Positions 12,225-40,384 of a stretch of DNA of 56,298 nt are shown one piece after another. Where the stretch lies: contig QNCD01000002.1 in assembly GCA_003644385.1 (NCBI GenBank), positions 1-56,298 of the forward strand. The letters run 5' to 3'. Position 1 is the first letter of the stretch, and each line of letters starts with the position of its first letter. Both the position numbers and the translations under genes were made by a program. This DNA comes from Candidatus Omnitrophota bacterium (GTDB taxonomy: Bacteria > Omnitrophota > Gorgyraeia > Gygaellales > Profunditerraquicolaceae). The notes under the pieces were generated by a model that was not told the DNA's origin, ran no database searches, and saw only the letters and a list, made by a program, of their open reading frames with translations.

Positions 12225-12614
12225 TCAACCGTTGTACTCAAAATGATAGGGATCTACCAATTCAAAATCTCCTCCCCATCTATTGTAAGGATCTAATTTT
12301 TTCCAGTATTCTCCAAGTTTTTCATAATGTATTTTTTCTTTCAGCCAGTTACCTTCCTTGTCTAATATAAAAATATCTATTGCTAACTTGTCCTGATGTT
12401 TGGAGTGTCTGGCTTTACTATAGCCCATATATCTATAAACATCCTGCAAATCAAAAATAAATTCTCTATTACAATGAGGACACTTGAATCTTAAATGTGC
12501 TGGTCTATAAACTTCTCCTATAGAAAAGTTGATATCATTCTTTATAGACCAGCACAATAACTTGGTGAGTAAATTTCTAAAGTGAATCTGTTTGCGACTA
12601 AGTCTCATCTCCAC
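12225..12614 (-). CDS. peptidase M15 (VanY/L-Ala-D-Glu peptidase-like) endolysin
   Basis: SKHQDKLAIDI (H and D zinc ligands) and WGGDF...DPYHFEY (third His) match the M15 signature. The gene sits last in a holin-like/secreted-protein cassette. Confidence 0.65.
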   Translation of the reverse strand: MEMRLSRKQIHFRNLLTKLLCWSIKNDINFSIGEVYRPAHLRFKCPHCNREFIFDLQDVYRYMGYSKARHSKHQDKLAIDIFILDKEGNWLKEKIHYEKLGEYWKKLDPYNRWGGDFELVDPYHFEYNG

Positions 12615-13090
12615 TCATAAGTGATAGCCAACCCAAATCTACCGCTGGTGTAATAATATAGAAGTTGGAATCTCGTATTTCTAAACTCTTCCAAAGTAAT
12701 CTTCTTCTGAAATTCAAAAGGTTTAGCATTCATAATTCCAATCGCATTGCCAGCTGGATTAGTAGACCAGATCCAGTTGATATTCTCACCTTCGACAATA
12801 TGAATGTAACCACCTAACTTGTATCCTTCAGTAATGGCAACATTGAAATTCCCGCTTTTCATTGCTTTTTCCAGCATAGGAGTAATTAAGTCTACTACCA
12901 CTCCCCACCAATCAGGAACAGAAATAGGATTCTGTTCAATTGATTCTGCAACTTGGTTGCTGGCTACCTCTAAAGAAATTACCTCTTCATCATCAACTTG
13001 CACAGCTACTACAGCAGTAGATAATCCCAAAACTAACACACAAGCCATCAGCAAAGCCAATAACTTCAGCAAGATTAATAACTTTTTCAT
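12605..13090 (-). CDS. signal-anchored/secreted beta-rich protein in lysis cassette
   Basis: N-terminal MKKLLILLKLLALLMACVLVLGLS, a hydrophobic signal with a possible LMAC lipobox. The C terminus ends in an aromatic-rich beta-like segment, GLAITYEWR. Confidence 0.45.
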   Translation of the reverse strand: MKKLLILLKLLALLMACVLVLGLSTAVVAVQVDDEEVISLEVASNQVAESIEQNPISVPDWWGVVVDLITPMLEKAMKSGNFNVAITEGYKLGGYIHIVEGENINWIWSTNPAGNAIGIMNAKPFEFQKKITLEEFRNTRFQLLYYYTSGRFGLAITYEWR

Positions 13091-13104
13091 CTGGCTAACC
13101 TCCT

Positions 13105-13386
13105 TTATTTTTTCTTCTTCTTACTTAAAGCACACTTAGCTACTTCATTGGTCAGCTCTTTAGCAACCTTACTCTCAGGGTTCAAACCTTCAGCCTGTAA
13201 TCCCTTAATAATCAGATCAATCACAGCATCAACATTGTCAGGAGTTACTTCCTTAACATCAGTTAGAATTTTTACAATCACATTCCTGTACTTCTTCTTC
13301 GGGTCAATTTTGTAAGCTGACAGCAATAAAGTGATTAAAACTACAATAGGGTAAGTTAACTTTAAAATTAAATCAAGATAATCCAT
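13105..13386 (-). CDS. putative holin-like small membrane protein
   Basis: 93 aa with one N-terminal TM segment (TYPIVVLITLLLSAY) and a lysine-rich C terminus, located upstream of the endolysin. Call is by position only. Confidence 0.3.
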   Translation of the reverse strand: MDYLDLILKLTYPIVVLITLLLSAYKIDPKKKYRNVIVKILTDVKEVTPDNVDAVIDLIIKGLQAEGLNPESKVAKELTNEVAKCALSKKKKK

Positions 13387-13400: not shown

Positions 13401-14075
13401 TTAAACATATCTTACAAATCTTGTTTTGTATACTTCTGTAATTTCATCCTCAATCCCTTCTGCTTTCATTTCCTCAAATAACTGATAGAAATATTCATCA
13501 ACGGACTTACCTATTGTTTTCAGTGATGCTTTTCTTACCGCACTTTTTACCTTAGCCTGAATCAACGGCAGAGGAAATTTCTTCTCCTTTTTATGGCAGG
13601 TTGGTAGCCTTTTCGTAAATTCTTGAAATTTTTCTGGAGTAAATACTTTGTCATTCTGAGGCTCAATAAGTAAAACATTAAGTCCCTCAGCTAAGATGAT
13701 ACTGTTGTAGCTATGAACCCTTGAATCTGTAATTATAAAATGCCACTTGTTTTTAATGATTGATTTGGCAGTTAAGACCAAAGAGAAATCATCACAATCA
13801 AACCAATCTTTTCTATATTTGAATTTATCAGTTTCATCTTCTTTTAGAAATTGAATTACTTGACTCCTAACAGGTAGCCAATAGTTCTCATCTGCTAAGT
13901 AGAGAAAAGTAGTATTTCCAAAAACTCTTTTCAGTACTTTTTCAATAGTTTGCCAATTTTGAACACTGGCTCCAGGTTTTTTAACCAAAAGTGCACCAAA
14001 GAATAAAAAAACAAACCACCAGATGAAATTTTTAATCTTGCTCATCCTTATCAACCTCCTCTTCAGATGCACCAT
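13401..14075 (-). CDS. membrane-anchored protein with Cys/His pair (possible papain/transglutaminase-like fold)
   Basis: TM segment FIWWFVFLFFGALLV. FDCDDFSLVLTAK and RVHSYN are faintly reminiscent of cysteine peptidase cores. The likelier start is the internal ATG at 14045, preceded by GGAGG. Confidence 0.45.
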   Translation of the reverse strand: MVHLKRRLIRMSKIKNFIWWFVFLFFGALLVKKPGASVQNWQTIEKVLKRVFGNTTFLYLADENYWLPVRSQVIQFLKEDETDKFKYRKDWFDCDDFSLVLTAKSIIKNKWHFIITDSRVHSYNSIILAEGLNVLLIEPQNDKVFTPEKFQEFTKRLPTCHKKEKKFPLPLIQAKVKSAVRKASLKTIGKSVDEYFYQLFEEMKAEGIEDEITEVYKTRFVRYV

Positions 14076-14598
14076 GAGCTGTGCATCCTTCTTTTAAATT
14101 TGTCGCTCCTTTTTCTTGTAAACTCTGCAAATAAGACTTAGAAAGTTCAAATGCAGGAGGATAAAAGTGTTTGAAATTTTTAAATTCTCTCAATAATTTC
14201 TTCATCACTATAATAGCATCCATCATTGTCCAGTGAGTATCAATTAGTCTACGGAGTGTCAATGAAAGGACTTTAACTTCATGTGACTTAATAGTCATCT
14301 GATTCCAATTGAATGCTAACAGACTAAATTCTATCGACAAATCTTTCAGAATTGGAACTATAGGATGTGTAATAACTATATTAATTAATAAATTTAATAT
14401 TCTCCTAACCAAAGTCTCTTTATCCTCAGCATTAATGCTTTTACCATCCAAAACATCATCAATATCATTCTTCATAGTACAAACTGAAGATTTAATTTGT
14501 TGTAAATTATTCTGTCCAAATAGTTTTAACAAATCCTGCTTGTAAGTTAATATTTTCTCGAGTTTACCAACATTTTTCCTATAAAGTTCTACTGACAT
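14032..14598 (-). CDS. hypothetical helical protein downstream of the radical SAM pair
   Basis: 188-aa co-directional ORF abutting the stop of 14599..15924, with an acidic C-terminal tail. Confidence 0.5.
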   Translation of the reverse strand: MSVELYRKNVGKLEKILTYKQDLLKLFGQNNLQQIKSSVCTMKNDIDDVLDGKSINAEDKETLVRRILNLLINIVITHPIVPILKDLSIEFSLLAFNWNQMTIKSHEVKVLSLTLRRLIDTHWTMMDAIIVMKKLLREFKNFKHFYPPAFELSKSYLQSLQEKGATNLKEGCTAHGASEEEVDKDEQD

Positions 14599-15924
14599 CT
14601 ATTCCTCCATTATTTTTTCTATAAATCGAAATGACATAGCTTTTCGCTCATCAATGTAATTAAGTATGGTTTTATACATATTGACTTTTTTGAAACCTTT
14701 AATCATTGCCATTACTTTAGCGTGAAACAATTTACAGACCGTAGGAATCGGAGAAAACATATCTCCAGTCACTTCCAACATTGAGCCCAAACATTGTGCT
14801 TGGCATAAATATTTAATAGCACACACCTCACACTGAGGCTGAGAATAATAATGAAAAGTTTTAGTGCCAATTAATAGTTCAGGATTTACTGCTTCAATTC
14901 CAACGATTCTATTATTGTCCACTATGAATTTAGCTAATGTATTCTGTGGGTAGCTGATACGATGACAAGGAACAATTGCTAAATCTCCCATTCTGATATA
15001 AAGACAGGACTGGAGTGAACAGCCTATTCCTCTTCCAGTATTAGTCAATGGAGCTGATAGAATATTATAGCCTTTAAGGGTGAACAAAAATTTCATAAAT
15101 TTCTTCGGATCACTTTTGCAAGGGTGTTTGAAAGTCCATTCAATTAAGAACTCAATAAATTTCATATATTCTTTAATCTGCCAGTCTGTCCATTCTACAT
15201 TTCTAACTTCTAACAAATAAATATTAAAAAAAGGCAAATCATATTTCCTGAAATATGATTGAAACCATAAAAAGTTATCTATCCAATTTTCAATCAGCTC
15301 AGAATATATCATCGGGTGGAAACCAAATTTATGTTTTACAGCAAATTTGAAGCACTTATCATAGTATTCGTCGTCTCTATTATCAATGCCAATTTTTAAC
15401 GGTCGATTTCTTTCACAATATTTTCCATCAAAGCTTGCACTTAAAGCTAATCTAATTCCAATCTTTTTACTTTTTTCAATCAGCCTTTCTACTTTTTCAG
15501 TTAGTTTATCATTTAGAATAAAAGTAAAATTCGTTGGAACGCAAATCATCATTGGCTTCTTCTCAGCACTTGCGAACTTATCAAGAATTAAATCTAAAGC
15601 ATCAAAACCAAGCTTCTGCACAAAAGGTTCTCCGCTGAAAAAATCTATCTTTGGAGCCATCCCATTCTCGATCCACCAATTGCACAGCAATTCTAAATTC
15701 TGCATAATTCTATCATAGTTGATAATCTTTGAAGGATATAGTTGCTCACCAAAGTGAGTATGATAACAATATTTGCACTTTAAGTTGCACTTTGAAGATA
15801 AATAAATTTCAGCCCTTGAAAAATTCTGTAAGTTTATATTTGTAGGTTCTTTCCATGCCTTGAAATATGTGCTTTCAAGAAATGAACTTACCAATTGATT
15901 ATTTTCTTGCTGAAATGTTAACAT
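14599..15924 (-). CDS. radical SAM / SPASM domain enzyme
   Basis: CNLKCKYC (CxxxCxxC, nt 15766-15789), FFSGEP SAM-binding-like motif, and the exact SPASM motif CX2CX5CX3C = CEVCAIKYLCQAQC (nt 14791-14832). Confidence 0.85.
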   Translation of the reverse strand: MLTFQQENNQLVSSFLESTYFKAWKEPTNINLQNFSRAEIYLSSKCNLKCKYCYHTHFGEQLYPSKIINYDRIMQNLELLCNWWIENGMAPKIDFFSGEPFVQKLGFDALDLILDKFASAEKKPMMICVPTNFTFILNDKLTEKVERLIEKSKKIGIRLALSASFDGKYCERNRPLKIGIDNRDDEYYDKCFKFAVKHKFGFHPMIYSELIENWIDNFLWFQSYFRKYDLPFFNIYLLEVRNVEWTDWQIKEYMKFIEFLIEWTFKHPCKSDPKKFMKFLFTLKGYNILSAPLTNTGRGIGCSLQSCLYIRMGDLAIVPCHRISYPQNTLAKFIVDNNRIVGIEAVNPELLIGTKTFHYYSQPQCEVCAIKYLCQAQCLGSMLEVTGDMFSPIPTVCKLFHAKVMAMIKGFKKVNMYKTILNYIDERKAMSFRFIEKIMEE

Positions 15925-17230
15925 CTTTCAGAATCTCCTGAAATGCACCATTTGCAAATAACCTAATCATGCTGACTGGAGTAAAATGGATGCAGCCCGT
16001 ATTTAACAAATTCTCAGTTGGACAAGAACATGCAGTATTGATGAACAAAGAAAATAGGATGCACAAATCATTATTAGTTAAGTATACCTTATCAGCCTGA
16101 CCACAGAGTGCGAGTTCTTTCAGCATTGCAACCACATAACTATTCTTCAATTTAGTGAAATCATGATAATTTCTCAATATATACTTCCATCGTAAAGTAT
16201 TATGTGGATCATCGACATTCACAATATATCTATTTCGGATAAAATCAATTTTCTTACCTTCAAACAGAGAGACGTCCCAATTGTCAATATCTTTTTGTGT
16301 GAGAATACTGTTCAGATATTCATCACAATTTAGATAAAATGTTCTGTGACAAATATGCAGGTCATCATCTATTCCCACACCAGAATTACTATCACCACCT
16401 GAACAGGTAAACATGGCAGGATTTACATTTAGCCTGTCCCAGTGGTCAAATACCTTTTTAAATCTGAAACAGTAAGTATTTGGATATTTCATTTCACGCA
16501 GATTTTTGAAGAATGTAGCCAATTGCTTCCCGTCTTCACTTGTGTATTTTCCTGGAACAACTAAAGTTGGTGAACAAGTGTTTCTGAAACTGACTTGTCT
16601 TTGCTTGTTAATTGCTTTGAATCGAGCCTGCATATCTTTAAAGTATTCAAAATACTGCTTGATTTTGTTTTTATCCTTATTCAATAATCTAATATTTTCT
16701 TTCGAGAAAGTTGATTTCACTTTAAACTCAACAGTTAGTTCATTCAAACTAACTGCATTCAACTCTTTTAATAGAGAGCAAAAGTTAGAAAGTATTTTCT
16801 CACTTGCGCCTTTCATACGGTTTTTATCAGTAATAAAGCTTGGACCATCTACAGAAATTTGGATCTTAAGTTTCAGTTTTTTATTGGTATTGGATAGCTG
16901 CTTAACAAAGTCGACTAATATGTTTGTATTGGTAAGCAAGTTTGTCGAAAAACTAATTTCTTTCAAGTTGGGAAAACTCTGAAGACATCCAATTATGAAA
17001 TCCGTAGATTGCAGCAATGATAGAGTTGGCTCAGTACCCCAAAGTCCAAGGTATTCCAAATTACTTCTATAAATTGTAGCAAGGTTTCCAAAGTAATAAT
17101 CTTTTCTCAGTTTTGTGACAATCTTGTTGTGGAGCTTAACCATTTCTTTACTTTTTGGTATATAACAATATTTGCAGTTCAAATTGCAGTAACCTGAAGT
17201 CAAAACTTCTACAGCTTTCATTCTGTCCAT
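15899..17230 (-). CDS. radical SAM enzyme with Cys-rich C-terminal (twitch/SPASM-like) region
   Basis: CNLNCKYC (nt 17165-17188), LWGTEPTL glycine-rich SAM motif, and C-terminal cysteines in FTCSGGD...HICH and ACSCPTENLLNTGC. Confidence 0.8.
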   Translation of the reverse strand: MDRMKAVEVLTSGYCNLNCKYCYIPKSKEMVKLHNKIVTKLRKDYYFGNLATIYRSNLEYLGLWGTEPTLSLLQSTDFIIGCLQSFPNLKEISFSTNLLTNTNILVDFVKQLSNTNKKLKLKIQISVDGPSFITDKNRMKGASEKILSNFCSLLKELNAVSLNELTVEFKVKSTFSKENIRLLNKDKNKIKQYFEYFKDMQARFKAINKQRQVSFRNTCSPTLVVPGKYTSEDGKQLATFFKNLREMKYPNTYCFRFKKVFDHWDRLNVNPAMFTCSGGDSNSGVGIDDDLHICHRTFYLNCDEYLNSILTQKDIDNWDVSLFEGKKIDFIRNRYIVNVDDPHNTLRWKYILRNYHDFTKLKNSYVVAMLKELALCGQADKVYLTNNDLCILFSLFINTACSCPTENLLNTGCIHFTPVSMIRLFANGAFQEILKDVNISARK

Positions 17231-17238
17231 CTTAGCCC

Positions 17239-17634
17239 CTATAAAGAACTATCGTGTATTCCATCATATCCACTATCGTAAACGCCATCATACCCAATAT
17301 CATGACCGCTATCAACATCACCATCTTCTCCTAAATTATAACCACTTTCGTGAGTAGCATAGTAAGACCCCTTGTCATCAACATCCACCGTAACATCATC
17401 ACCGATGTCATAAGTACCTTCGTCAGCAGTGTCATATGTACCATGTTCATTGTTATAAATTGTACTATCAAATGCAGAATCTATTCCATTATCGTAATCA
17501 GCGTTGTAGGTACCCTTGTCAGTTACACACGCTTCGTTGTCTTTGATATAGTCAATATTCGTGCGTATCTCATCTATCGCTGATTTTATATGGACCGAAC
17601 CAACCCCAATATCTTCTGTCCAAGAAAAAGCCAT
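17239..17634 (-). CDS. hyper-acidic Tyr/Asp/Gly/Ser-repeat protein (candidate radical SAM substrate / tail-fibre accessory)
   Basis: 131 aa. N-terminal MAFSWTEDIG..IKSAIDEIRTNIDYIKDNEAC, then a Y-D-x rich tract (GTYDTADEGTYDIGDD, GYDGVYDSGYDG). Paralogous to 17645..18139. Confidence 0.6.
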   Translation of the reverse strand: MAFSWTEDIGVGSVHIKSAIDEIRTNIDYIKDNEACVTDKGTYNADYDNGIDSAFDSTIYNNEHGTYDTADEGTYDIGDDVTVDVDDKGSYYATHESGYNLGEDGDVDSGHDIGYDGVYDSGYDGIHDSSL

Positions 17635-17644
17635 TTAATCTCCT

Positions 17645-18139
17645 TTAATAAACATTAGCTTCAAACCCACTATTATAATCACCATTATCTCCTGAATTCG
17701 CTCCAATGTCGTCTGAGGCATCATATCCAGCATCATCAGTTGAGTAATCCGATCCATAGTCAAGAGAATCATAGCCTGATACTGCAGTTGCATCTTCACT
17801 GCTATCAAAAGAACTATCATAACTTAAATCATAACTTGAGTCATAACCTATATTATCTCCATTATCAACCCCAGTATTGATATCATTATCAATTGTCGAA
17901 TCATATGTAGCATCATGCTGTCGGCAGTAATTCATATCGTCTGCATAATCAACTTTATTACGTATCTCTACAAACTGAGCACTCTTTATAAAGTCGCCAG
18001 CATTAACAGGCAGATTAGTCCAAGAAGGTGCACCTAATAACAAATCAGAATATACTATTTCAATATTCGTTTGTATCTCGTCAATAATGTCATCAAGTTC
18101 AATATCACCCACTAAAATTGAAGTCCAAGAAAATCCCAT
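17645..18139 (-). CDS. hyper-acidic Tyr/Asp/Ser-repeat protein, paralogue of 17239..17634
   Basis: 164 aa with two copies of the SWT...I..EI(Q/R).N motif, then MNYC followed by GYDSSYDLSYDSSFDSS...GYDSLDYGSDYSTDDAGYDASDD. Confidence 0.6.
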   Translation of the reverse strand: MGFSWTSILVGDIELDDIIDEIQTNIEIVYSDLLLGAPSWTNLPVNAGDFIKSAQFVEIRNKVDYADDMNYCRQHDATYDSTIDNDINTGVDNGDNIGYDSSYDLSYDSSFDSSEDATAVSGYDSLDYGSDYSTDDAGYDASDDIGANSGDNGDYNSGFEANVY

Positions 18140-19201
18140 TTATCTCACCATCACCAATGCCCAAATTCTTTTTTTCTGTTTAGGCAATAAATCCTCAAGT
18201 GCTTTAGCTACAACCGCTCCAATAGGATTCCCTCTCATGGCATAGCCTTTTATATTACTTGTAGTTAACAAATCACCAACTGTCACAGGACCAATTGTCT
18301 TAACTTTAACCCTACCAGAGATAGCCACTGGCACATAGCCTTTCTCAATAGCTTTCTCAATTGATTTTTCATTTTCTCCTCCAAGACAGTACCCAAAAGT
18401 ATCAGAATAAACACCAACCACCCTTTTGTCCCCAATAATATCAGTTCTTCCTACTCTACCATTTTCCCAGATTAATACATCACCAGGTTTTAAAGACTCA
18501 CTTGCTGGCATTAATTCTGCAAGATCATTATAAACAGCTCTCCATACTTTAGCAGAATCATCAATAATGGTATAAGAAGTGCCGCCAGAATCATTTTTAA
18601 TCAGCAATTTACCAGAAGCAAGTTCTATTTGAGCGGTAATCATTGGTGCTCCTGAATGGCCTTCGGCAAGTGCTGTAAAGTTGTCTTGATTCTGAGTCAT
18701 TTTTGTTGAAGTTAATAGTGAGCCAGAAGGATAAGTCAAATCTGTCCAAGTACCTCTAATAAATCTTGGTCCAAGTTTATAGCTGAGTTCAAGATAGCAA
18801 TCAGGACAGACAATAGGCATCCTATTCGTACCCAACTCTGACAAAGAAGGCAAATATATCCAGCCAGGATAGCCAATACCATAGATCTTCTCCTTGTGCT
18901 TCTTTCCACATCTTGAACACCTGACTATTCGAGGCTCTCTAACTGTTATCTTATTGCTTATTTTCTTTAGACAATCTGGACAAACTTCAGGAGCTTTGCC
19001 TTCAATATCTAAACTGATCGGGAGAATTGCCCATCCAAAGAAGCCTTCATTCGGATATGACTCTTTGACGTGCTTTTTACAGAAATGACAATCTGCTGTG
19101 CGGAGATATTCATTATTCCATCTTAATGGTCTTACTTTATGTTTAACTTTCCACTTTTGCCATTTTTCTTTAATTAAACTTTCAATTGTTTGTTTGTTCA
19201 T
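18140..19201 (-). CDS. tail fibre-like protein: duplicated zinc-ribbon N-terminal region and peptidase G2/IMC-like C-terminal region
   Basis: Two tandem modules: CHFCKKH...GW..LP...CPDC and CSRCGKKH...GW..LP...CPDC. The TWTDL...LTSTKMTQNQDNF motif resembles tail-fibre motifs. C-terminal NDLAELM..GDVLIWENG..RVVGVYSD resembles the DYAEMF..G.fV..ilGvvS pattern. Confidence 0.45.
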   Translation of the reverse strand: MNKQTIESLIKEKWQKWKVKHKVRPLRWNNEYLRTADCHFCKKHVKESYPNEGFFGWAILPISLDIEGKAPEVCPDCLKKISNKITVREPRIVRCSRCGKKHKEKIYGIGYPGWIYLPSLSELGTNRMPIVCPDCYLELSYKLGPRFIRGTWTDLTYPSGSLLTSTKMTQNQDNFTALAEGHSGAPMITAQIELASGKLLIKNDSGGTSYTIIDDSAKVWRAVYNDLAELMPASESLKPGDVLIWENGRVGRTDIIGDKRVVGVYSDTFGYCLGGENEKSIEKAIEKGYVPVAISGRVKVKTIGPVTVGDLLTTSNIKGYAMRGNPIGAVVAKALEDLLPKQKKRIWALVMVR

Positions 19202-19246: not shown

Positions 19247-20959
19247 TTATAAACTCAATAGCTTCCGCAATGGAAACTCATATCCTGTTGCTTGTGAATC
19301 CGCTTCATAAAACCAGAGTGCACCCCAAGAAAAATCTTTTGAATAAGCACGAGCTCTATCCATTGATACCAACAAGTATCTTGTTTCACCCTGTCGATAA
19401 TAAGGGATAATCATTGGATGAGGATGTCGATGACCTGTTTTAACATTTATGGTTATATTAGAAACAGAAGTAAGATTAGGATAATCCCAATAACCAAAAT
19501 TATCACTATTATTGGAAACAACATAATATGTGCCATTGACTTTCACAATTTTTGTTCCTTCCGCCTCTGTTGCCAAGGAGCTACTTGCAACAGCAGACCA
19601 GCTTGTAAAATCTCCTGTACTTTCTGCAACAGCTACTGTTCCTATTCCTTTAATATATGCAATACGCCATTTTTCCACACTATCATCATAAATAACAAAT
19701 GGGTCATAGACATGTACAGTACCTGTTCCTGGTAGTGAACAAGAAGAGCTCAGAAGATAATGAATTCCGGTTAATAAATTTTCTCTGGCTTCACTATATT
19801 CAACAGTACAATATGTGTTATCGCCTAACCGTTGCGCTCCCCAAGTAGACCAAAACACATACCACTTTTCTGCATCTTGGTCAAAAAATATATGAGAAGC
19901 ATGGTCTGGACGAGTCTTGCCATTACTATTCTCTCTAAATAACAAAGACTCAAGACAGATATCATAAGAGCGCGGATTAAAGCTGATAATCCCTTGGCAA
20001 GAAGTTCTTATACTCCATCCTGCCAGAGTAACTCCTAAAAAAATTCTTCCATTTTGTATAAGGGGAGCTCCGTCTTTCCATGTAATCACAGTAGGATCAC
20101 GCATGCCCAATGGAGTAAACTGATAGATAGTAAAGTTATTGAATGTACACGAATTAGTATCAGCCAAACGGTAACCGAAACCAATATCCCAATCATCTCT
20201 TACTGCCGGATCTAACAAGTCAATCTCAGTCCAGCTATGTGTGCCAACAAAGTGCCAATCTTTATTGTTCTCTCGTGTAAAGATTGCAATGTCATTCCCA
20301 GCCATCAAAACTCCCAGCTCATAAGGTGGAGTTGGTATTGCTGCTTCAATCGTAGTAGCAGCTCCAGTTCCACCAAACATTTCATATACTTCTACTCTAC
20401 TTTGAACCTTATTCACAACTATAACTATGTAATTATTCACATCTTTGTCAATACAAATCATCACATTACGAGAACCCGATGTACCAGAAATGGATTCCAC
20501 ATCCAATTTTATAAATTGGAATGGATGCTGTCCTGTCCCTCTAACTAAAAAATGTTCTTCACTATCTGCCCCTGTTGAATTCGTGATTGTTAATTGTCCA
20601 TCATTAATAGATTTAGTAGAAGCAGATCCTGTAGTTACAATCGATTTGAAATAATTTGTATTAGTTGAATCAAATAAATTAGCTCTAAAATTCGACCTGT
20701 GCTGAATTCTATCATCAATAAGACGGAGTATTTCACGACTAACATTCATAGTATTGAAAGTAAGAGAGCCAATATCAGTACCTCCACTAAGAGACTGGGT
20801 GACTTCTGAATACAAATAATATTTTCCTTTAAATAATGACACATTGTCAGCAGAGTGAAAGTTAAAGTCCAAGTCAGCACGAAGTTTACCACCATCTCTC
20901 AGATCCTTATGGTGTGCATTTGAATCTTTTATGTGAGCTTGTAAGTCTATTAATGCCAT
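19247..20959 (-). CDS. tail spike/fibre with C-terminal beta-propeller glycoside-hydrolase-like domain
   Basis: C-terminal half has repeated blade-like motifs: YDPFVIYDDSVEKWRIAY, EGTKIVKVNGTYYVVSN and EKWYVFWSTWG, as in GH43/GH32-type five-bladed propellers. Located in the tail-tip region. Confidence 0.45.
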   Translation of the reverse strand: MALIDLQAHIKDSNAHHKDLRDGGKLRADLDFNFHSADNVSLFKGKYYLYSEVTQSLSGGTDIGSLTFNTMNVSREILRLIDDRIQHRSNFRANLFDSTNTNYFKSIVTTGSASTKSINDGQLTITNSTGADSEEHFLVRGTGQHPFQFIKLDVESISGTSGSRNVMICIDKDVNNYIVIVVNKVQSRVEVYEMFGGTGAATTIEAAIPTPPYELGVLMAGNDIAIFTRENNKDWHFVGTHSWTEIDLLDPAVRDDWDIGFGYRLADTNSCTFNNFTIYQFTPLGMRDPTVITWKDGAPLIQNGRIFLGVTLAGWSIRTSCQGIISFNPRSYDICLESLLFRENSNGKTRPDHASHIFFDQDAEKWYVFWSTWGAQRLGDNTYCTVEYSEARENLLTGIHYLLSSSCSLPGTGTVHVYDPFVIYDDSVEKWRIAYIKGIGTVAVAESTGDFTSWSAVASSSLATEAEGTKIVKVNGTYYVVSNNSDNFGYWDYPNLTSVSNITINVKTGHRHPHPMIIPYYRQGETRYLLVSMDRARAYSKDFSWGALWFYEADSQATGYEFPLRKLLSL

Positions 20960-22603: not shown

Positions 22604-22971
22604 TAAGAAACCTCCCTTAGTATCAGTTCACCTTCGAAGTAAGTTTCCCAACCAGGGTCAAACATTGCTTGCAACGGTCTTTCTTCATTGATAATCCTAA
22701 CACTGATGCTATCTGTAGGATCATATTTTAAATCTGGATAAAAAGTTAACTTCGTTAAATTCTGCCACCAGCCCACAAATATGTCTCTATCGTCTCTACT
22801 TATCTTTGTTACAGGTACAACATACTTCCTTTTATTGCCCCATTCGTAGATATAAAGTTCACCATCTAAAGTTTTGTGAGCAGTTCTCGGTCTATCTTCA
22901 GGTACTTCAAAGCCTTTAGCAGGAGAAAATTCTATTGAAGTAACTCCATCAGTTAATTTCATTACTCTCAT
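22603..22971 (-). CDS. minor tail protein
   Basis: 122-aa ORF overlapping the tape-measure stop by 4 nt and coupled to the tip protein. Call is by position only. Confidence 0.4.
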   Translation of the reverse strand: MRVMKLTDGVTSIEFSPAKGFEVPEDRPRTAHKTLDGELYIYEWGNKRKYVVPVTKISRDDRDIFVGWWQNLTKLTFYPDLKYDPTDSISVRIINEERPLQAMFDPGWETYFEGELILREVS

Positions 22972-25900
22972 CTTGCCACCAGCTCTCCAACTAAGTCTGA
23001 GGATAAAATACCAGATCTTGCAGCATCTTTAATAGCAGGGATAAATTTTAGCCTAAATATGCGATTTATCTTGCTCTGGTCCAAATTCTCTAAATCAACA
23101 TTTGGCAATTCTATAGTTACATTAATATCACCAAATCTTATAATGTTACCAGCTCTCCCTCCAATCAATTTGACTGGCACTGCTCCTCCTTCTAAAGGAA
23201 TAATTGCTTCTGGTCTTCCTCCTTCTCCAACCAATCCTAAAGTTGGTTTAGTTACTATTGCTCCTCCTTGTGCTTCTAAAGGTTCAAATCCTCCTTTTGC
23301 CATTCCTCCTTTTTCAAAGCCAATAATCCCTGCTACGAGCCTGCCAATTCCTGCAACTACTGCTCCAGCTGCTGCCAGACCTAAAATCGGACCTACAAAA
23401 GGAATTCCTGCAAAAGCTGCATATGCTGCAGCTGCTGCTTTAGCTGTAAACAAAGCTATTTCTTTCATAACAGTGAAGACAGTTTTAGCCAACATAACTC
23501 CCATACCCCACAGATACTTAGCAACTATTGCTAAAATAGACTTCTCTTCCACTTTCTGTCTGGTTTTTGCACCTGCAATTGTAGCAAGAGTCATCATTAC
23601 TTGTTTAGCTATCCATTCACTTGCCATTTCAGCAACACTGCGGTAAAAAGATGTTTTAATTTCTTCCCAAATCCTATTTGTAAAATCTTCCCAAGTACTC
23701 AATCCTCTCATCCATTCTTCAACTACAGGCACAAATCTACCTTTCATATCCTCATAGAATCCTGCAAACATCTCTCTCCAGGTAATAGTACTTTCGAGAA
23801 TTTCGTCCGTAACTTCCCCAAGAGCAGTCTTTACTGGTGCAACTATTTTCTCCCACTCATAGAATTTTTTGTAAAACTTACTTACACTGCCTCTGGCTCT
23901 GTCCATTGCTTCAATTAAAGAATCTGTTGCTACAATCGTTGTACTAATTCCATATGCAGGTGCCTCTGGAAATTTACGAGACATTAAATCGTACATCTCA
24001 CCCCAAGATTGTCTCGCTCCTTCCATCCAGTAAATAAATTCAGAGCCTTTTGTGCTAATATCGGACAAGCCATAAGCTGGTGCTTCAGGAAACTTCCTGA
24101 AGAAAAGATTATAAAACTCCTGCCATGCTAACCGTGATTTTTCAATATAAGTAGCAAAATCTTTAGCCAATTCAATGAGCGTTGAAATTCCATACGCAGG
24201 AGCTTCTGGGAATTTGCGGGATAAAACATCGTAAAATTCTTTCCAAGCCATTCTTGCCTTCTCAATATGTACAGCGAAATCCTTAGACTTCTCTGTAATA
24301 TCTGGAATACCGTATGCAGGAGGCTCAGGAAACTTTCTGGACATAAGATTATACATCTCCTGATATTCTTGCCTTGCTCCTTCGATATATACAGCAAAGT
24401 CTTTGGATAATTCTATGATATTTGAAATACCATATGCTGGAGGTTCAGGAAACTTACGAGATAGGATATTATAGAACTCTTGCCAACCTAATCTCGCACT
24501 TTCTACCCAAATAGCAAAATCTTTAAGTTTCTCTGTAACATCTGAGATACCATAAGCTGGAGATTCGGGAAACTTTCTGGACATAAGGTCGTACATTTCT
24601 TGATATTTTCCTCTTGCTTCTTCAATATACATAGCAAAGTCCTTAGCCAAAGCCATAGTTGTGCTAAAACCATAAGCTGGAGCATCAGGGAATTTACGAG
24701 ACATTAGGTCATACATTTCTTGATATGCCAGCCTTGCTTTTTCAATATAACCAGCGAAGTCTTTAGACAGAAGTATAAGTCCAGCAAGCCCATAAGCTGG
24801 AGTTTCTGGAAATTTACGAAGTAATAGTTCATAAAACATCTGCCATTCTACTCTCGATTCTTCCACCCATTCAGCAAGTTCTAATCCTATTATTGATTCT
24901 ATATTCTCGTCTAATTTCACAAGTTCTTTATTCAAATTGCTCAATTCTCTCTTAAATTTTCCAGATTCTTCTGCTCCTTGACCAAATTCATCAGCAAGCT
25001 GACTTGTGCTACTGGCAGCATCTAAAGCTGACCTTGAAGTTTCATTTATATTTTTTTCAACTTCTTCTAAGCGATTTTCAAGAATTGTAAAAGCTCTATC
25101 AACACTTACTCCCACCATTTTAGGTAACTTTTCAGTTACTGGCTTGAAGCCTTCTAATAAAGGAGTCCAATCGGGAGGTTCAATCTTCTTAAACCAGTTT
25201 TTAGGATTTAATTTCTTTATTACCCAGCCGACCCAAGATGTAATATTTTTGCCTAAATTAGTAAAAACAGTTAGCACTGCCTTACCAGCATCAATAAATA
25301 TATTTGGGAAATTACTTATAAACCAATCAATAAAATTCCCAATATTGATACCAACTGATTTAAAACTTTCAATTATTATTCTACCAAACCATTCAATATA
25401 TGCACCCGCTTTCTGAACAGACTTTCTAAAAGTTTCACTTCTTTGATATAACAAATACAAACCAGCAGCTGCTACAGTAAGTCCCAGTATAATCCACCCA
25501 CCAGGCCCCATTCCAGCAAAAGCTGCCATCAATGCTGGACCTAACTTTGATAAAACTGAAATAAAGAAACCTATTGCTCCCACAGTTTTCATTATTGTAG
25601 GAGCCATCATTAATAAAGGTCCTCCAACTGCTAATAACCCTCCCAATACCATAGCAAATTTAACAAGTGCTGAAGTAATTTTAGGATGAGCTTTCGTCCA
25701 TTCTCCAATACTTCTAACTATATCCTTTATGTTTTTAATCATAGGAGTTAAAGTGGGCAATAGCACATCACCAAGGACTAATTGTACTTCTTCAACTGCT
25801 GATTTCAATAACTTTAAAGTGCCTTGCCATGTGTTAATTTGTCTTTCTGACATCTCAGCAGCTTTATTCGTCCCTGTAATTCTATTTTCAAGTTCTTTAA

Positions 25901-28210: not shown

Positions 28211-29314
28211 TTATAATTTAACAAGTTGTAAAAGCTTTTCAGCTCTATTTAAATATGTGTGTTTCTTAATTTTTCTGTTACCACTTTGAGCAATTTTTTT
28301 TCTCTCTTCTTCATGTTCCAAATAATAAAATATCTTTTCAGCTGCATCTTTAGCATCTTTATAAATCACAAGATCCTCACCAGGAACAAACAAGTCATCA
28401 ATTTCTTTTCTATAATCAGTCATTAAGAAACCACCAGCAGCTAATATTTCATACACTCTGGGATTTAAGCTGTAAGGCTCTATTTCTTCAACTCGGCTTT
28501 CTCCAGTTTTAATATTCCTTACTATTTTTTTGGACTCATTAACTCTAAAATGATTCAATACTATTTTTGAATTAGCATAGTACCGAATAACTTCATACTT
28601 GCTCAATGTAATTGGAATATAAAAAGGTTCCAGCTGTGGACACAATCCCTTATCTATAGAAGGAAATACTCCAAAAATTTTAAAAGCCACCTTTCCTTTA
28701 ATATAAGAGACCAAATCTGTCAAGAATTCAATTCTTCCAGGCACCTCAGATCCTACAAAAAACAAATCTGGGGTATATACAATTTGTTCCCATCTTTTCA
28801 GTTCAGTTTTCCATTCATAGTGGGAGTTATAACCTACTGGCAAATAATAACTATTCGGATTAAATCTACGATATATTTTCTCACAAGCTTTATCACAAGT
28901 AAACACATAATCATATAATGGTGCTCTTTGAATTTCATGAGCAATATTATAAGGTGACTCCGTAAACCAGATAACCTGTTTCATATGAGGAAATCTCTCC
29001 TTAATCAAAGCTGGCACCCAAGCTGGTATATATTGACCTGTGATATAAATTATCAATTGTGGCCAAAGATGGACAACTGTAGTAATCAGCCCTTGGCAAG
29101 CTGCTGAATAAACATCTTTCCAAGCAACTCTATCATTAGTACCTTTTAAAAAAAATTGCACTGCCTGACGATAAAACTTCAGTCTATCCTTTAACTCAAA
29201 AGGATATACTTCTTGTCCCATCATTTTAAGAGCATCTCCCAATCCATAATAAACATCTATAGTGCTAATGCCGTGACCAGGTGAAACTAACAAAATTCTT
29301 GGCTTTTCTGCCAT
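28211..29314 (-). CDS. GT-B type glycosyltransferase (CgeB/Glyco_trans_1_2-like)
   Basis: C-terminal DAKDAAEKIFYYLEHEEERKKIAQSGNRKIKKHTYLNRAEKLL is typical of the group 1/CgeB-like glycosyltransferase C terminus. Confidence 0.55.
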   Translation of the reverse strand: MAEKPRILLVSPGHGISTIDVYYGLGDALKMMGQEVYPFELKDRLKFYRQAVQFFLKGTNDRVAWKDVYSAACQGLITTVVHLWPQLIIYITGQYIPAWVPALIKERFPHMKQVIWFTESPYNIAHEIQRAPLYDYVFTCDKACEKIYRRFNPNSYYLPVGYNSHYEWKTELKRWEQIVYTPDLFFVGSEVPGRIEFLTDLVSYIKGKVAFKIFGVFPSIDKGLCPQLEPFYIPITLSKYEVIRYYANSKIVLNHFRVNESKKIVRNIKTGESRVEEIEPYSLNPRVYEILAAGGFLMTDYRKEIDDLFVPGEDLVIYKDAKDAAEKIFYYLEHEEERKKIAQSGNRKIKKHTYLNRAEKLLQLVKL

Positions 29315-29325
29315 TTTATCCTCCT

Positions 29326-33570: not shown

Positions 33571-33571
33571 T

Positions 33572-35034: not shown

Positions 35035-35045
35035 GGTATACCTCC

Positions 35046-36020: not shown

Positions 36021-36047
36021 ATCTCCTAAATTTTTAATAACACATTT

Positions 36048-38347: not shown

Positions 38348-38637
38348 CTTTTCTTTTTCTGATGTTTCTGAAATTTAACAAATTCTTCTGCAAGAGTTGC
38401 CAGTTTATCTAATTTTTCACTAATAGTGGCAAGTTTAGAATTTATATTCAACGATCTATCTTCCTTTGGTTTTGGCCAAACAAATAATACGGATTCCAAA
38501 ACATAATCCTCTTTTTTTTCTACAATCTTCTTTAACTCTTCTACTGCTGTATCAAAGTCCTTGATATAATATTCTTCTGATTTATTCCATCCTTTAATAA
38601 CTACCTTTATCATCTTTGCTGGGTCAATTAATGCCAT
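38344..38637 (-). CDS. hypothetical protein inside the glycosyltransferase block
   Basis: 97-aa co-directional ORF with a 4-nt overlap with the downstream gene. No motif recognised. Confidence 0.45.
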   Translation of the reverse strand: MALIDPAKMIKVVIKGWNKSEEYYIKDFDTAVEELKKIVEKKEDYVLESVLFVWPKPKEDRSLNINSKLATISEKLDKLATLAEEFVKFQKHQKKKR

Positions 38638-40369: not shown

Positions 40370-40384
40370 ATTTTACTCCTTATA

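What the first reader, a model, noticed from the sequence alone, without database searches (positions are those of the whole stretch)
13401..18139. Two radical SAM (one SPASM) enzymes encoded directly after two hyper-acidic Tyr-Asp-x repeat proteins in the phage late operon: a RiPP-like maturation system attached to the tail-fibre module
Seen: two back-to-back ~440-aa ORFs (26-nt overlap) each carry CxxxCxxC near the N terminus: CNLNCKYC at nt 17165-17188 and CNLKCKYC at nt 15766-15789. The downstream one also has an exact SPASM CX2CX5CX3C motif (CEVCAIKYLCQAQC, nt 14791-14832). Immediately upstream are two paralogous ORFs of 131 and 164 aa. Each has a conserved ~35-aa N-terminal module (M-[AG]-FSWT...I[DE]EI[RQ]TNI) and a single Cys. 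An extremely acidic, Lys/Arg-poor tract follows, built of aromatic-Asp-x units (GYDSSYDLSYDSSFDSS, GTYDTADEGTYDIGDD, GYDGVYDSGYDG), with roughly a dozen Tyr per protein. Directly downstream are a 188-aa helical protein and a 224-aa membrane-anchored protein with a Cys/His pair (FDCDDFS, RVHSYN). Established: rSAM/SPASM enzymes mature many RiPP classes and are normally encoded next to their substrates. Examples are three-residue cyclophane formation on aromatic-X-X motifs, sacti/ranthipeptide thioethers, and Ser/Cys oxidation by anaerobic sulfatase-maturase relatives. Inference: the leader-like N terminus plus repeated aromatic-X-X core is what a multiply cross-linked rSAM substrate looks like. 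Here the whole set lies between tail-fibre genes and the lysis cassette of a phage. This suggests either a post-translationally cross-linked virion (fibre-associated) component or a peptide product released at lysis. An alternative reading is that the acidic proteins are DNA mimics or Ca-binding modules unrelated to the rSAMs. I am not aware of a described phage system with this architecture, but I cannot check that without a search.
Basis: partly seen in the sequence, partly recalled or inferred. Interest (0 to 1): 0.85.

Follow-up and report, generated by a model that had tools for sequence, protein, structure and literature searches.

The report
Radical-SAM maturation cassette for tail-fibre-linked repeat proteins
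This phage carries a conserved, undescribed five-gene cassette, also present in candidate-phyla-radiation (CPR) bacteria, in which two radical-SAM enzymes and a helper protein most likely chemically modify two hypervariable repeat proteins encoded right after the tail-fibre genes; the closest known system is the bacterial His-Xaa-Ser (HXS) anti-phage system.

Summary
In detail: every ORF, motif and coordinate checks out. The module is not a one-off. Its conserved core is five genes: two paralogous repeat proteins (AC), two paralogous radical SAM enzymes (R1 with one auxiliary-cluster site, R2 a full SPASM enzyme) and a helical protein (HEL). Of 38 non-redundant loci with enough flank, 37 have R1+R2, 37 have HEL and 33 have two or more AC genes. 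Four of the other five carry His-Xaa-Ser-type repeat proteins instead, three of them next to a bona fide HxsB. AC proteins have a conserved N-terminal part and a hypervariable core with a 4/8-residue period, [ST]-[VYH]-[DN]-x. Acidity and Tyr are local features of this window, not family features. The 224-aa Cys/His protein is an occasional accessory. In phages the cassette directly follows tail-fibre genes, and one AC module is fused to a 960-aa carbohydrate-binding protein. It also sits among housekeeping genes in CPR chromosomes. R1, R2 and HEL match no curated family above cut-off. R1/R2 are not HxsB or HxsC, and HEL is not HxsD. My reading is a new HXS-like or RiPP-like protein-maturation system, probably producing a fibre-associated hypervariable protein. 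The chemistry is unknown.

The parts
18140..19201 (-). p353: protein with two N-terminal CxxC...CPxC zinc-ribbon-like units and a C-terminal domain of about 140 aa. It abuts acA (stop TAA directly followed by the acA ATG).
   Evidence: This family is upstream of the cassette in 17 loci. The shared part is the C-terminal ~140 aa, which also ends larger upstream proteins of 634-1229 aa. It also ends a collagen-like GYSGYSG fibre in L065. A second upstream family (nb2) is a ~60-aa zinc-ribbon domain that ends 1428- and 1655-aa tail-fibre proteins. No Pfam family matches.
17645..18139 (-). acA: type-A repeat protein. Residues 1-72 form a conserved two-helix N-terminal part ending in EIRNKVDYADDMNYC. 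Residues 73-164 form a hypervariable tetrad-repeat core (RQHD ATYD STID ... SGYD).
   Evidence: Six close homologues and 291 profile hits. The AF2 model has low confidence (pLDDT 42): helices 15-32 and 47-76, core disordered. No signal or TM segment.
17239..17634 (-). acB: type-B repeat protein. Residues 1-36 form a short conserved N-terminal part ending in EIRTNIDYIKDNEAC. Residues 37-131 form the tetrad-repeat core (GTYN ADYD NGID SAFD ... SGYD GIHD).
   Evidence: It belongs to the same HMM family as acA, and the two types nearly always occur as an adjacent pair.
15899..17230 (-). R1: radical SAM enzyme with SAM cluster C15/C19/C22 and GxE motif W64-G65-x-E67-P68. Only three conserved C-terminal Cys (C276, C294, C403), which suggests one auxiliary cluster (twitch-like or partial SPASM).
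   Evidence: Pfam Radical_SAM 27.7 bits (cut-off 29.5). The best NCBIfam hits are GrrM/OscB, PapB, YhhB and anSME at 38-42 bits against cut-offs of 310-445. 334 homologues. Alignment A3. Best PDB profile hit is ChlB 9gm3, E 1e-5. Paralogue of R2: hhalign probability 94.5%.
14599..15924 (-). R2: radical SAM/SPASM enzyme with SAM cluster C46/C50/C53 and the full seven-Cys SPASM set C302, C320, C365, C368, C374, C378, C397, plus C170. It has a conserved 40-aa N-terminal extension (E7, N8, L11).
   Evidence: The best NCBIfam hit is PapB, 57 bits over the full length (cut-off 340). The SPASM model TIGR04085 scores 19.5 bits (cut-off 27). Best PDB profile hit is 5wgg, E 6e-10.
14032..14598 (-). HEL: all-alpha partner protein with conserved NWN and PPAFxLSxHYL motifs. 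It is a core cassette member.
   Evidence: Present in 57 of 64 sources, always after an rSAM. In the order R1-HEL-AC-AC-R2-HEL each rSAM has its own copy. No Pfam, NCBIfam, PDB or Foldseek match. The AF2 single-sequence model has pLDDT 60 and is all helices. Not HxsD.
13401..14075 (-). p224: membrane-anchored accessory protein with conserved YDCDDF Cys, GxHAxN His and EPQ. It is a putative papain-like peptidase or transglutaminase-like enzyme and is not a conserved cassette member.
   Evidence: Only 5 homologues among 64 sources, 3 of them directly after HEL. Weak Pfam hit to Agglutinin_C, E 3.6e-4, below cut-off.

Best explanation
The region is one copy of a conserved, mobile protein-maturation cassette. 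Two paralogous proteins (acA, acB) each carry a conserved N-terminal recognition part that ends in E[IL]R-x-N-x-D-x3-DN-x1-2-C. This is followed by a hypervariable core of tetrad/octad repeats, [STG]-[TSG]-[VYH]-[DN]-[SAG]-[STG]-[DHYNE]-[DN]. Two paralogous radical SAM enzymes use the 5'-deoxyadenosyl radical to abstract hydrogen from repeat residues and install covalent modifications. R1 has the SAM cluster plus one auxiliary-cluster site with three Cys ligands; R2 has the SAM cluster plus a full two-cluster SPASM domain. HEL acts as a dedicated partner that presents the substrate or stabilises the enzyme, as PqqD-like RRE proteins or HxsD do elsewhere, although it is homologous to neither. 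The first repeat after the conserved Cys is usually [TSA]-H-[ND]-[SAT], an HxS-like unit, and the same enzyme trio elsewhere serves genuine His-Xaa-Ser repeat proteins. The target is therefore most likely the [H/Y/V]-x-[S/T]-type unit, modified repeatedly. The product probably stays a protein: no conserved protease, no export signal, and one natural fusion to a large protein. In phages it probably works as a hypervariable, chemically tailored component docked on the C-terminal domain of the preceding tail-fibre protein, i.e. a fibre-tip adhesin or decoration. Shown: gene content, conservation, linkage, motifs, and leader/core rate contrast. Inferred: the enzyme-substrate relation, the role of HEL, the residue targeted, and virion association. 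Unknown: the chemistry.
For: Linkage: of 38 non-redundant loci with at least 2 kb of flank on both sides, 37 have R1+R2, 37 have HEL and 33 have two or more AC genes within 2.5 kb. Adjacency is kept through three gene orders: AC-AC-R1-R2-HEL, R1-R2-HEL-AC-AC and R1-HEL-AC-AC-R2-HEL. It is also kept in CPR chromosomes that have no phage genes nearby. Catalytic competence: CxxxCxxC, the GxE motif and the SPASM cysteines are invariant. Substrate-like layout: leader identity is 56% against core identity 26% (medians), with the core lower in 111 of 111 pairs. The cores have a strict 4/8 period. HXS link: in L052, L059 and L063 the trio lies beside HxsB (476-514 bits, cut-off 370) and HxsA3/A4-type proteins. 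L041 has an HxS-rich protein. L063 joins an HxsA3-type leader to an acidic Y/D/S core. The junction motif C-x-[TSA]-H-[ND]-[SAT] has His in 37 of 68 proteins. HXS itself is a system of two rSAMs, a partner protein and a repeat effector in which an SHRSS unit is modified (PMC13128918). Fibre association: tail-fibre proteins, or proteins ending in the p353-type or zinc-ribbon-type C-terminal domain, directly precede or overlap the AC genes. In L065 the type-A AC module is fused to the C-terminus of a 960-aa protein with five discoidin-like repeats, followed by ACb-R1-R2-HEL. L011 has an AC leader fused to a LamG domain. AC proteins lack a signal or TM segment in 83 of 84 cases and a Tat motif in 83 of 84. 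In the window the set forms one tight operon running from the tail genes to the lysis genes.
Against: There are no experimental data and no modified residue is known. R1, R2 and HEL reach no curated family cut-off, so the chemistry cannot be transferred from a characterised enzyme. No RRE is detectable, and the role of HEL rests on synteny only. The AC and HEL models have low confidence. The cassette also sits in CPR chromosomes between housekeeping genes, so a virion role cannot be its only function. The link to HXS, an anti-phage system, allows a defence or exclusion role instead. The window phage also carries a 16-kb glycan island, and 13 other loci have a glycosyltransferase in or next to the cassette. 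Glycosylation of the Ser/Thr-rich cores may therefore be part or all of the tailoring seen by the cell.
Confidence: 0.6

Rival explanations
1. The cassette is an HXS-like defence or superinfection-exclusion module carried as a moron between the tail and lysis genes. The matured repeat proteins would act in the infected or lysogenic cell to block entry of competing phages, as mature HxsA blocks DNA entry.
For: The architecture parallels HxsD-HxsB-HxsC-HxsA. The trio lies next to true HxsB/HxsA in three loci. The cassette occurs in cellular chromosomes without phage genes. From my own knowledge, the position at the end of the late operon is a common site for phage-borne accessory genes.
Against: AC proteins have no signal peptide, TM segment or peptidoglycan-binding domain (Pfam), whereas HxsA is processed and exported. 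The window cores are strongly acidic (pI 4.05), the opposite of the basic DNA-binding HxS array proposed for HxsA. The AC genes are translationally abutted to fibre genes, and one is fused to a structural-type protein. PADLOC gives no defence-family hit beyond generic rSAM similarity. R1/R2 are not HxsB or HxsC, and HEL is not HxsD.
Confidence: 0.15
2. The cassette makes a classical RiPP. The N-terminal part is a true leader that a protease removes (p224 in this window), and the modified acidic core is released at lysis as a free peptide such as a metal chelator, signal or antimicrobial.
For: The layout is a conserved leader plus a hypervariable core. The enzymes are rSAM/SPASM types typical of RiPPs. 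p224 has a conserved Cys/His/EPQ set compatible with a papain-like peptidase and follows HEL in 3 loci. The cores are rich in H, D, Y and N, which suits metal binding.
Against: p224 is present in only 5 of 64 sources, and no other protease or transporter is conserved. Cores reach several hundred residues, with AC proteins up to 505 aa. The AC module occurs fused at the C-terminus of a 960-aa protein and, in L011, N-terminal to a LamG domain. No RRE was detected.
Confidence: 0.12
3. The repeat proteins are not rSAM substrates. They would be structural, Ca-binding, DNA-mimic or glycosylated fibre proteins, and R1/R2 would act on something else such as a sugar nucleotide or glycan.
For: The window carries a large glycan island that includes a GT2-rSAM fusion. 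A glycosyltransferase is inside or next to the cassette in 13 loci. The cores are rich in Ser/Thr and in [DN]-x-[ST]. The AF2 model shows no folded core.
Against: AC, R1, R2 and HEL stay together in loci that lack any glycan genes or glycosyltransferase, and through gene-order permutations. When AC genes are absent they are replaced by another class of known rSAM substrate, HxsA-type proteins. The nearest models for R1/R2 are all peptide- or protein-modifying SPASM maturases, not sugar-modifying rSAMs.
Confidence: 0.06

Closest known systems
His-Xaa-Ser (HXS) system, HxsD-HxsB-HxsC-HxsA (NCBIfam TIGR03976-TIGR03979; Li et al. 2026, PMC13128918)
   Same: Both have two adjacent radical SAM enzymes, a small non-enzymatic partner, and a protein substrate with short tandem repeats centred on His/x/Ser. 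The product stays a protein. The R1-R2-HEL trio lies beside true HxsB and HxsA3/A4 in L052, L059 and L063. AC proteins usually begin their core with [TSA]-H-[ND]-[SAT].
   Different: R1/R2 are not HxsB or HxsC (hhalign probabilities 1-25%; no NCBIfam hit). HEL is not HxsD. AC proteins have another leader, no export signal and no peptidoglycan-binding domain. Their repeat period is 4/8, not 3, and their cores are acidic or neutral, not basic. There are two precursor paralogues. The context is the phage tail-fibre module and CPR chromosomes, whereas HXS is 99.7% Pseudomonadota.
Triceptides / three-residue cyclophane-forming rSAM-SPASM enzymes (GrrM/OscB, YhhB, XyeB, FxsB, ChlB)
   Same: These are the best-scoring NCBIfam models for R1 (GrrM/OscB, YhhB), and ChlB (9gm3) is the best PDB profile hit. 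Their substrates carry repeated aromatic-x-x units. The window cores have 9 and 12 [YFH]-[DN]-x units.
   Different: Scores are 26-42 bits against cut-offs of 310-450 and cover only the rSAM core. Family-wide, the aromatic position is Val in 29% and Tyr in 26% of octads, so cyclophane formation cannot be the general reaction. The substrates are proteins of 75-505 aa, not short peptides.
TvgA/TvgB poly-cyclopropylglycine system (Kostenko et al. 2022, PMC9062424)
   Same: An rSAM/SPASM enzyme acts repeatedly on a period-4 repeat (TVGG) and modifies Val. The commonest AC unit is [ST]-V-[DN]-[SA], also period 4 with Thr/Ser before Val.
   Different: No sequence relationship was detected. There is one enzyme, not two. 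The tvg cluster has an oxidase and transporters, which are absent here. The repeat is invariant there and hypervariable here.
Ranthipeptide/SCIFF thioether maturases (PapB, CteB = PDB 5wgg by my recollection, QhpD)
   Same: These are the best full-length model match for R2 (PapB 57 bits over residues 40-390) and the best PDB hit (5wgg). PapB links Cys to Asp in CX3D motifs (my knowledge; PMC12373016 title and abstract). AC proteins have C-x3-[DN] at the junction in 31 of 68 cases.
   Different: The score is far below the cut-off (340). AC proteins have one Cys (median one in the core), and about a fifth of them lack the junction Cys. Thioether formation could therefore account for at most one link per protein.
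Phage fibre-tip partner proteins such as T4-type gp38 adhesins (my own knowledge, not tested here)
   Same: A small gene lies directly after the fibre gene. It has a conserved N-terminal attachment part and a hypervariable, Gly/Ser/Tyr-rich C-terminal part.
   Different: No homology was tested or expected. No known fibre-tip protein is matured by radical SAM enzymes.

Membership tests
Radical SAM superfamily (PF04055) | CxxxCxxC triad for the SAM-binding [4Fe-4S] cluster, plus the GGE-type SAM-binding motif | tested here: met
   R1 has C15/C19/C22 and W64-G65-x-E67-P68. R2 has C46/C50/C53 and G98-E99. All are invariant in alignments A3 and A1.
Radical SAM superfamily (PF04055) | Pfam gathering score of 29.5 bits | tested here: not met
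   R1 scores 27.7 bits and R2 24.5 bits, so both are divergent. Many homologues carry a precomputed PF04055 hit.
SPASM domain (TIGR04085) | Seven-Cys pattern CX9-15GX4C ... CX2CX5CX3C ... C for two auxiliary clusters (definition from my knowledge) | tested here: met
   In R2, C302, C320, C365, C368, C374, C378 and C397 are invariant, although the model scores 19.5 bits against a cut-off of 27. R1 does not meet this: only C276, C294 and C403 are conserved.
His-Xaa-Ser system | HxsB-type maturase (TIGR03978, cut-off 370 bits) | tested here: not met
   The window R1 and R2 show no HxsB hit. Their L059 orthologues score 22.5 and 20.7 bits. R2 against Aeromonas HxsB gives hhalign probability 24.8%. 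True HxsB is present as an extra gene in L052, L059 and L063, but not in the window.
His-Xaa-Ser system | HxsC-type maturase and HxsD partner | tested here: not met
   R1 against HxsC gives probability 15.8%, R2 against HxsC 1.4%, and HEL against HxsD 0.15%.
His-Xaa-Ser system | Substrate with tandem His-Xaa-Ser repeats | tested here: inconclusive
   The window proteins get no HxsA model hit. Their first core unit is HxS-like: QHDA in acA, while acB has D at the His position. Family-wide this position is His in 37 of 68 proteins. The octad positions [VYH]-[DN]-[SAG] resemble H-x-S at period 4.
Triceptide 3-CyFE maturases | Membership of the GrrM/OscB, YhhB, XyeB or FxsB models | tested here: not met
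   The best score is 42.2 bits against a cut-off of 310.
Triceptide 3-CyFE maturases | Aromatic-X-X cyclophane cross-link in the product | not testable with these tools
   This needs MS/MS and NMR of the product. The motif is present in the window, but the aromatic residue is not conserved family-wide.
RiPP biosynthetic cluster (general) | Precursor with a conserved leader and a variable core, encoded next to the maturase | tested here: met
   Leader identity is 56% against core identity 26%, with the core lower in 111 of 111 pairs. Adjacency holds in 33 of 38 loci.
RiPP biosynthetic cluster (general) | RRE (PqqD-like) domain, leader peptidase and/or exporter | tested here: not met
   No PqqD/RRE hit appears in any cassette protein. 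HEL is predicted all-alpha. p224 is present in 5 of 64 sources, and no transporter is conserved.
Anaerobic sulfatase-maturating enzyme (anSME) | anSME model score, and a substrate C/S-x-P/A-x-R motif | tested here: not met
   R1 scores 38.6 bits and R2 26.7 bits against a cut-off of 349. Pro and Arg are depleted 3-4-fold in the cores, and the window cores contain no S/C-x-[PA]-x-R (sequence).
DGR (diversity-generating retroelement) target | A template repeat and an adenine-specific mutation signature | tested here: not met
   No direct repeat in the window involves 17.2-18.1 kb. Thr, Gly, Val and Ala codons show background third-position usage.

The most novel reading that the evidence does not exclude
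The AC proteins are tail-fibre-tip adhesins whose hypervariable repeat cores are stitched or tailored by two radical SAM enzymes before virion assembly. This would be the first virion structural protein matured by radical-SAM chemistry. The system would be shared between CPR (Patescibacteria) cells and their phages, as a chemically hardened, fast-evolving binding surface for attachment.
Probability: 0.3. Interest if true: 0.9.

Novelty: new variant of a known kind. Interest (0 to 1): 0.72.

Why it matters
Radical-SAM maturation is well known for small peptide natural products. It has only just been shown for one protein effector, HxsA. This cassette would extend it to a large, previously unnamed set of families: at least 655 R2, 334 R1 and 291 AC clusters, all metagenomic. 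These occur in uncultivated phages and in CPR bacteria, wired to the host-recognition end of the phage tail. If the products are virion components, phage receptor binding can depend on oxygen-sensitive radical chemistry. That would affect host-range prediction, phage engineering and the biology of CPR episymbionts. The paired enzymes, their partner protein and their simple repeat substrates also form a compact system for finding new rSAM chemistry on [H/Y/V]-x-[S/T] units. Working out that chemistry could also clarify the unresolved +8 Da chemistry of HXS.

Tried and rejected
(1) Isolate phages: blastn of the region, and tblastn of R1 and acA, against INPHARED found nothing. R2 matched only Campylobacter CP220-like rSAMs at about 25% identity. 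(2) The first viral-contig scan, with the single R2 sequence, found nothing. The scan with the alignment worked. (3) DGR hypermutation as the source of the N/D/H/Y/S/T-rich cores was rejected. (4) Homology of R1/R2 to HxsB or HxsC, and of HEL to HxsD, was rejected. (5) HEL as an RRE or any known family: no Pfam, NCBIfam or PDB profile hit. The single-sequence model has pLDDT 60, and Foldseek gave no match below E = 1. (6) The acA structure has pLDDT 42 and is not usable for fold search. (7) PADLOC gave only generic viperin-like rSAM similarity. (8) p224 as the conserved leader peptidase was rejected as a core part (5 of 64 sources), although it is kept as an accessory. (9) Hyper-acidity or DNA mimicry as the defining property was rejected, because core D+E ranges from 0 to 33%. 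(10) Six literature searches found no description of this cassette. (11) Promoter and terminator scans showed no excess over shuffles.

Full report
**1.

All six ORFs lie on the minus strand as described. The three Cys motifs sit at the stated nucleotides, which follows from the ORF coordinates. R1 and R2 overlap by 26 nt (15899-15924).
- acA has 13 Tyr and acB has 12. Each has one Cys and pI 4.05. Each core has only 1-2 Lys+Arg.
- Both cores read as an almost indel-free tetrad register x-x-Φ-[D/N]. Examples are ATYD STID NDIN TGVD ... in acA and GTYN ADYD NGID SAFD ... in acB.
- The genes are tightly packed. The p353 stop is followed directly by the acA ATG. AAGGAG precedes acB. R2 and HEL abut. 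HEL and p224 overlap by 44 nt.
- Promoter-like and terminator-like sites show no excess over shuffles. The block therefore reads as the end of the late operon.
- The window is a tailed phage. It has a tape-measure protein at 22968-26834, head protease/capsid-like genes at 48.7-51.8 kb, and an endolysin-like M15 peptidase at 12225-12614.

**2. What the enzymes are**

Both are divergent radical SAM proteins.
- Pfam Radical_SAM scores are just under the gathering cut-off, 27.7 and 24.5 bits against 29.5.
- The CxxxCxxC triads and the GxE motif are invariant in alignments of 20-22 homologues at 45-66% identity.
- R2 has all seven SPASM cysteines invariant.
- R1 keeps only three C-terminal cysteines (C276, C294, C403), which implies one auxiliary cluster.
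- R1 and R2 are paralogues (hhalign probability 94.5%).
- Their nearest curated models are all peptide or protein maturases: GrrM/OscB, PapB, YhhB, anSME, QhpD, SCIFF. Scores are 27-57 bits against cut-offs of 310-453.
- The nearest solved structures are ChlB (9gm3, E 1e-5) for R1 and 5wgg (E 6e-10) for R2.
- They therefore belong to the SPASM/twitch maturase world but to no named family.

**3. The module is a conserved cassette**

- The large protein database holds 655 R2 and 334 R1 homologues, nearly all metagenomic. Many members of the two sets come from contigs of identical length, and every fetched locus with R2 and enough flank also has R1.
- I fetched 43 IMG/VR loci and 18 loci from species-representative genomes using the R2 alignment. 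I built HMMs for each window protein and mapped them.
- Of 38 non-redundant loci with at least 2 kb on both sides, 37 have R1+R2, 37 have HEL and 33 have two or more AC genes within 2.5 kb.
- Three gene orders occur: AC-AC-R1-R2-HEL, R1-R2-HEL-AC-AC and R1-HEL-AC-AC-R2-HEL. In the last order each rSAM is followed by its own HEL copy, which argues that HEL is an enzyme partner.
- p224 occurs in only 5 sources. Its Cys (YDCDDF), His (GxHAxN) and EPQ are conserved. It is a plausible papain-like accessory, not a core part.
- HEL has conserved NWN and PPAFxLSxHYL motifs. It matches nothing in Pfam, NCBIfam, PDB sequences or Foldseek.

**4. The repeat proteins**

- acA and acB belong to one family with two leader types. 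Type B is MxFxW..G..I....EIR.N.D...DN..C. Type A has an extra N-terminal helix module before the same ending.
- A profile search of 1.84 billion representative proteins gave 291 hits at E ≤ 1e-3. These almost always start at residue 1.
- Across 84 proteins the cores (9387 residues) are enriched in H (2.8x), D and Y (2.2x), and S, N and T (1.8-2.0x). They are depleted 3-10-fold in K, R, L, I, F and M.
- Autocorrelation peaks at 4, 8, 12 and 16 residues.
- The octad profile is [STG]-[TSG]-[VYH]-[DN]-[SAG]-[STG]-[DHYNE]-[DN], at 5.2 bits against 0.86 bits for shuffled cores.
- The Tyr position is Val as often as Tyr, and Asn replaces Asp freely. Core D+E ranges from 0 to 33% and Tyr from 1 to 21%. 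The hyper-acidic, Tyr-rich look is therefore specific to this window and its close relatives.
- The cores evolve much faster than the leaders: median identity 26% against 56%, with the core lower in 111 of 111 pairs.
- The leader-end Cys matched my leader-end Cys motif in 70 of 89 unique family members; some of the 19 non-matching proteins still carry a junction Cys in a variant context, and others clearly lack it.
- The unit after the Cys is C-x-[TSA]-H-[ND]-[SAT], with His in 37 of 68 proteins.
- AC proteins have no hydrophobic segment in 83 of 84 cases and no Tat motif in 83 of 84.
- AF2 gives two leader helices and a disordered core at low confidence.

**5. The link to the His-Xaa-Ser system**

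- Five complete loci lack AC genes. In L052, L059 and L063 the R1-R2-HEL trio is preceded by a protein with another leader (MKKKxLPxIKKxIxSFLxSEEGKISKK...). Its core is SHGSHGSHSSH... in L059 and L052. In L063 the core is acidic and Y/D/S-rich.
- NCBIfam identifies these proteins as HxsA3/HxsA4. L059 scores 101 bits against a cut-off of 55. L052 scores just below cut-off (55.6 bits against 65 for HxsA3, and 51.1 bits against 55 for HxsA4), and in L063 only the leader matches HxsA3 (27 bits).
- The extra rSAM beside them is HxsB, at 476-514 bits against a cut-off of 370.
- L041 has an HxS-rich protein 2 kb upstream.
- The HXS system was recently characterised as an anti-phage system. HxsB and HxsC (two rSAMs) and HxsD (which binds HxsC) mature the HxS-repeat effector HxsA, with a +8 Da change on an SHRSS unit (PMC13128918).
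- The architecture is parallel, but the proteins are not orthologous. R1/R2 against HxsC give probabilities of 15.8% and 1.4%. R2 against HxsB gives 24.8%. HEL against HxsD gives 0.15%.
- I therefore treat HXS as what this cassette works like, not as a family it belongs to.

**6. Where the cassette lives**

Phage loci:
- The gene directly upstream usually ends in one of two small domains. One is the p353 C-terminal ~140 aa, found in 17 loci and at the end of proteins of up to 1229 aa.
- The other is a ~60-aa CxxCGKK... zinc-ribbon domain. It ends tail-fibre proteins of 1428 and 1655 aa that overlap the AC start.
- In L065 a collagen-like fibre with the p353 domain comes first. Next is a 960-aa protein of five discoidin-like repeats whose last 130 residues are a type-A AC module. 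Then follow ACb, R1, R2 and HEL.
- This fusion, and an AC-leader::LamG fusion in L011, argue that the N-terminal part is a domain of a structural or surface protein and not a discarded leader.

Cellular loci:
- The cassette is not only viral. In L050, a 238-kb Parcubacteria contig, it lies between a cysteine desulfurase, GT2, cupredoxin and TatC on one side and POR, RecG and the CCA-adding enzyme on the other.
- L063 carries DnaE. L046, L051 and L059 share the L050 synteny.
- In those cellular loci where an AC pair is present (L046, L050, L051), a stand-alone zinc-ribbon protein takes the place of the fibre gene; L059 has HxsB plus an HxsA4-type protein instead, with no zinc-ribbon protein or AC pair detected.
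- Many other copies are on contigs binned as CPR or DPANN. Some of these bin labels may be binning artefacts.

**7. Mechanism (inferred)**

- The two AC proteins are made in the cytoplasm late in infection.
- Their conserved N-terminal part recruits R1/R2, with HEL as partner.
- The enzymes act repeatedly on the [H/Y/V]-[D/N]-[S/T]-type units.
- The junction Cys might anchor the substrate on the open iron site of R1's three-Cys auxiliary cluster. This is an analogy from my own knowledge of SCIFF/CteB and is speculative.
- The modified protein then docks on the C-terminal domain of the preceding fibre protein.
- I cannot say which bond is made. Cyclophane formation fits Tyr/His units only. Val cyclopropanation (TvgB), epimerisation or Ser/Thr oxidation remain open.
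- A glycosyltransferase sits inside or next to the cassette in 13 loci, and the window has a 16-kb glycan island. Glycosylation of the Ser/Thr-rich cores is therefore a likely additional step.

**8. Rivals**

- A defence or exclusion role like HXS is possible, given the cellular copies and the Hxs coupling. It fits poorly with acidic cores, the missing export signals and the fibre fusions.
- A released small RiPP fits poorly with the lack of a conserved protease or exporter, and with cores of up to hundreds of residues.
- An unrelated-neighbours reading is contradicted by linkage through gene-order permutations and changes of host genome.
- A DGR origin of the core composition was tested and rejected.

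**9. Novelty**

- Six full-text searches found no description of this cassette.
- No Pfam, NCBIfam, PHROG-function or PADLOC model names AC, HEL, R1 or R2. PHROG 1802 is only 'radical SAM domain-containing protein'.
- The principle, rSAM/SPASM enzymes maturing repeat substrates, is known, and the HXS precedent exists. I therefore rate it as a new variant of a known kind.
- Interest is high because of its phage tail-fibre context, its CPR distribution and its unknown chemistry.

**Limits**

- Every functional statement rests on sequence and synteny.
- ORFs were called mechanically.
- Viral or cellular labels come from IMG/VR and from MAG bins.
- The structure models have low confidence.

Noticed in passing
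window 29300-45100 (minus strand): A glycan island of about 16 kb lies between the head and tail modules. It holds four NDP-sugar epimerase/dehydratase genes (31227-32258, 32259-33083, 34105-35034, 44053-45051), a GHMP kinase (35046-36020) and four GT2 glycosyltransferases (36726-37571, 37550-38347, 38638-39465, 39452-40369). It may glycosylate virion or AC proteins, or alter host glycans.
   Followed up: partly
window 40385-42049 (minus strand): A third radical SAM protein in the window: a 554-aa fusion of an N-terminal GT2 glycosyltransferase (76 bits) and a C-terminal Radical_SAM domain (65 bits). It hits the same PHROG 1802 as R1/R2.
   Followed up: partly
window 23935-24885: Seven tandem 120-nt (40-aa) repeats lie inside the tape-measure gene (22968-26834).
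   Followed up: no
window 12225-13386 (minus strand): A likely lysis cassette lies directly downstream of the module: a 93-aa and a 161-aa protein with strongly hydrophobic segments, and a 129-aa M15-type endolysin-like protein (PHROG 465, E 1e-5).
   Followed up: partly
L059 11879-19737; L052 16870-21134; L041 7475-14500: In some CPR-labelled loci the cassette is part of a much larger radical-SAM island. L059 has four more rSAM genes of 309-404 aa interleaved with a recurring ~300-aa family. L052 has a 648-aa rSAM. L041 has rSAMs of 342, 423 and 421 aa.
   Followed up: no
L046 6101-6883; L050 5239-6021; L051 5048-5794: A TatC homologue (Pfam TatC, E 6e-44) lies 0.5-1 kb upstream of the AC genes in CPR chromosomal copies, although AC proteins carry no twin-arginine motif. 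It also hits a PHROG of unknown function.
   Followed up: partly
P0386 (464 aa): This AC-type protein ends in a Hint/intein-like domain (CFTGRSLTITEMGRYVRVDSVKAGDYL...), which suggests autoprocessing or ligation of the modified core in some family members.
   Followed up: no
L026 7789-9189 and 12 other loci (for example L008 11275-12213, between R2 and HEL): A GT1/GT4-type glycosyltransferase family is directly downstream of HEL, or inside the cassette, in 13 loci.
   Followed up: partly
L050 6752-7024: A third, short (90-aa) AC-like protein with a divergent Pro/Glu-rich leader lies just upstream of the AC pair in a Parcubacteria chromosome.
   Followed up: no
window 19247-20959 (minus strand): A 570-aa protein upstream of p353 has no family match in Pfam, NCBIfam or PHROGs. 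Its sequence has repeated W/D-rich motifs that suggest a beta-propeller glycosidase-like receptor-binding protein. This is my impression from the sequence only.
   Followed up: no
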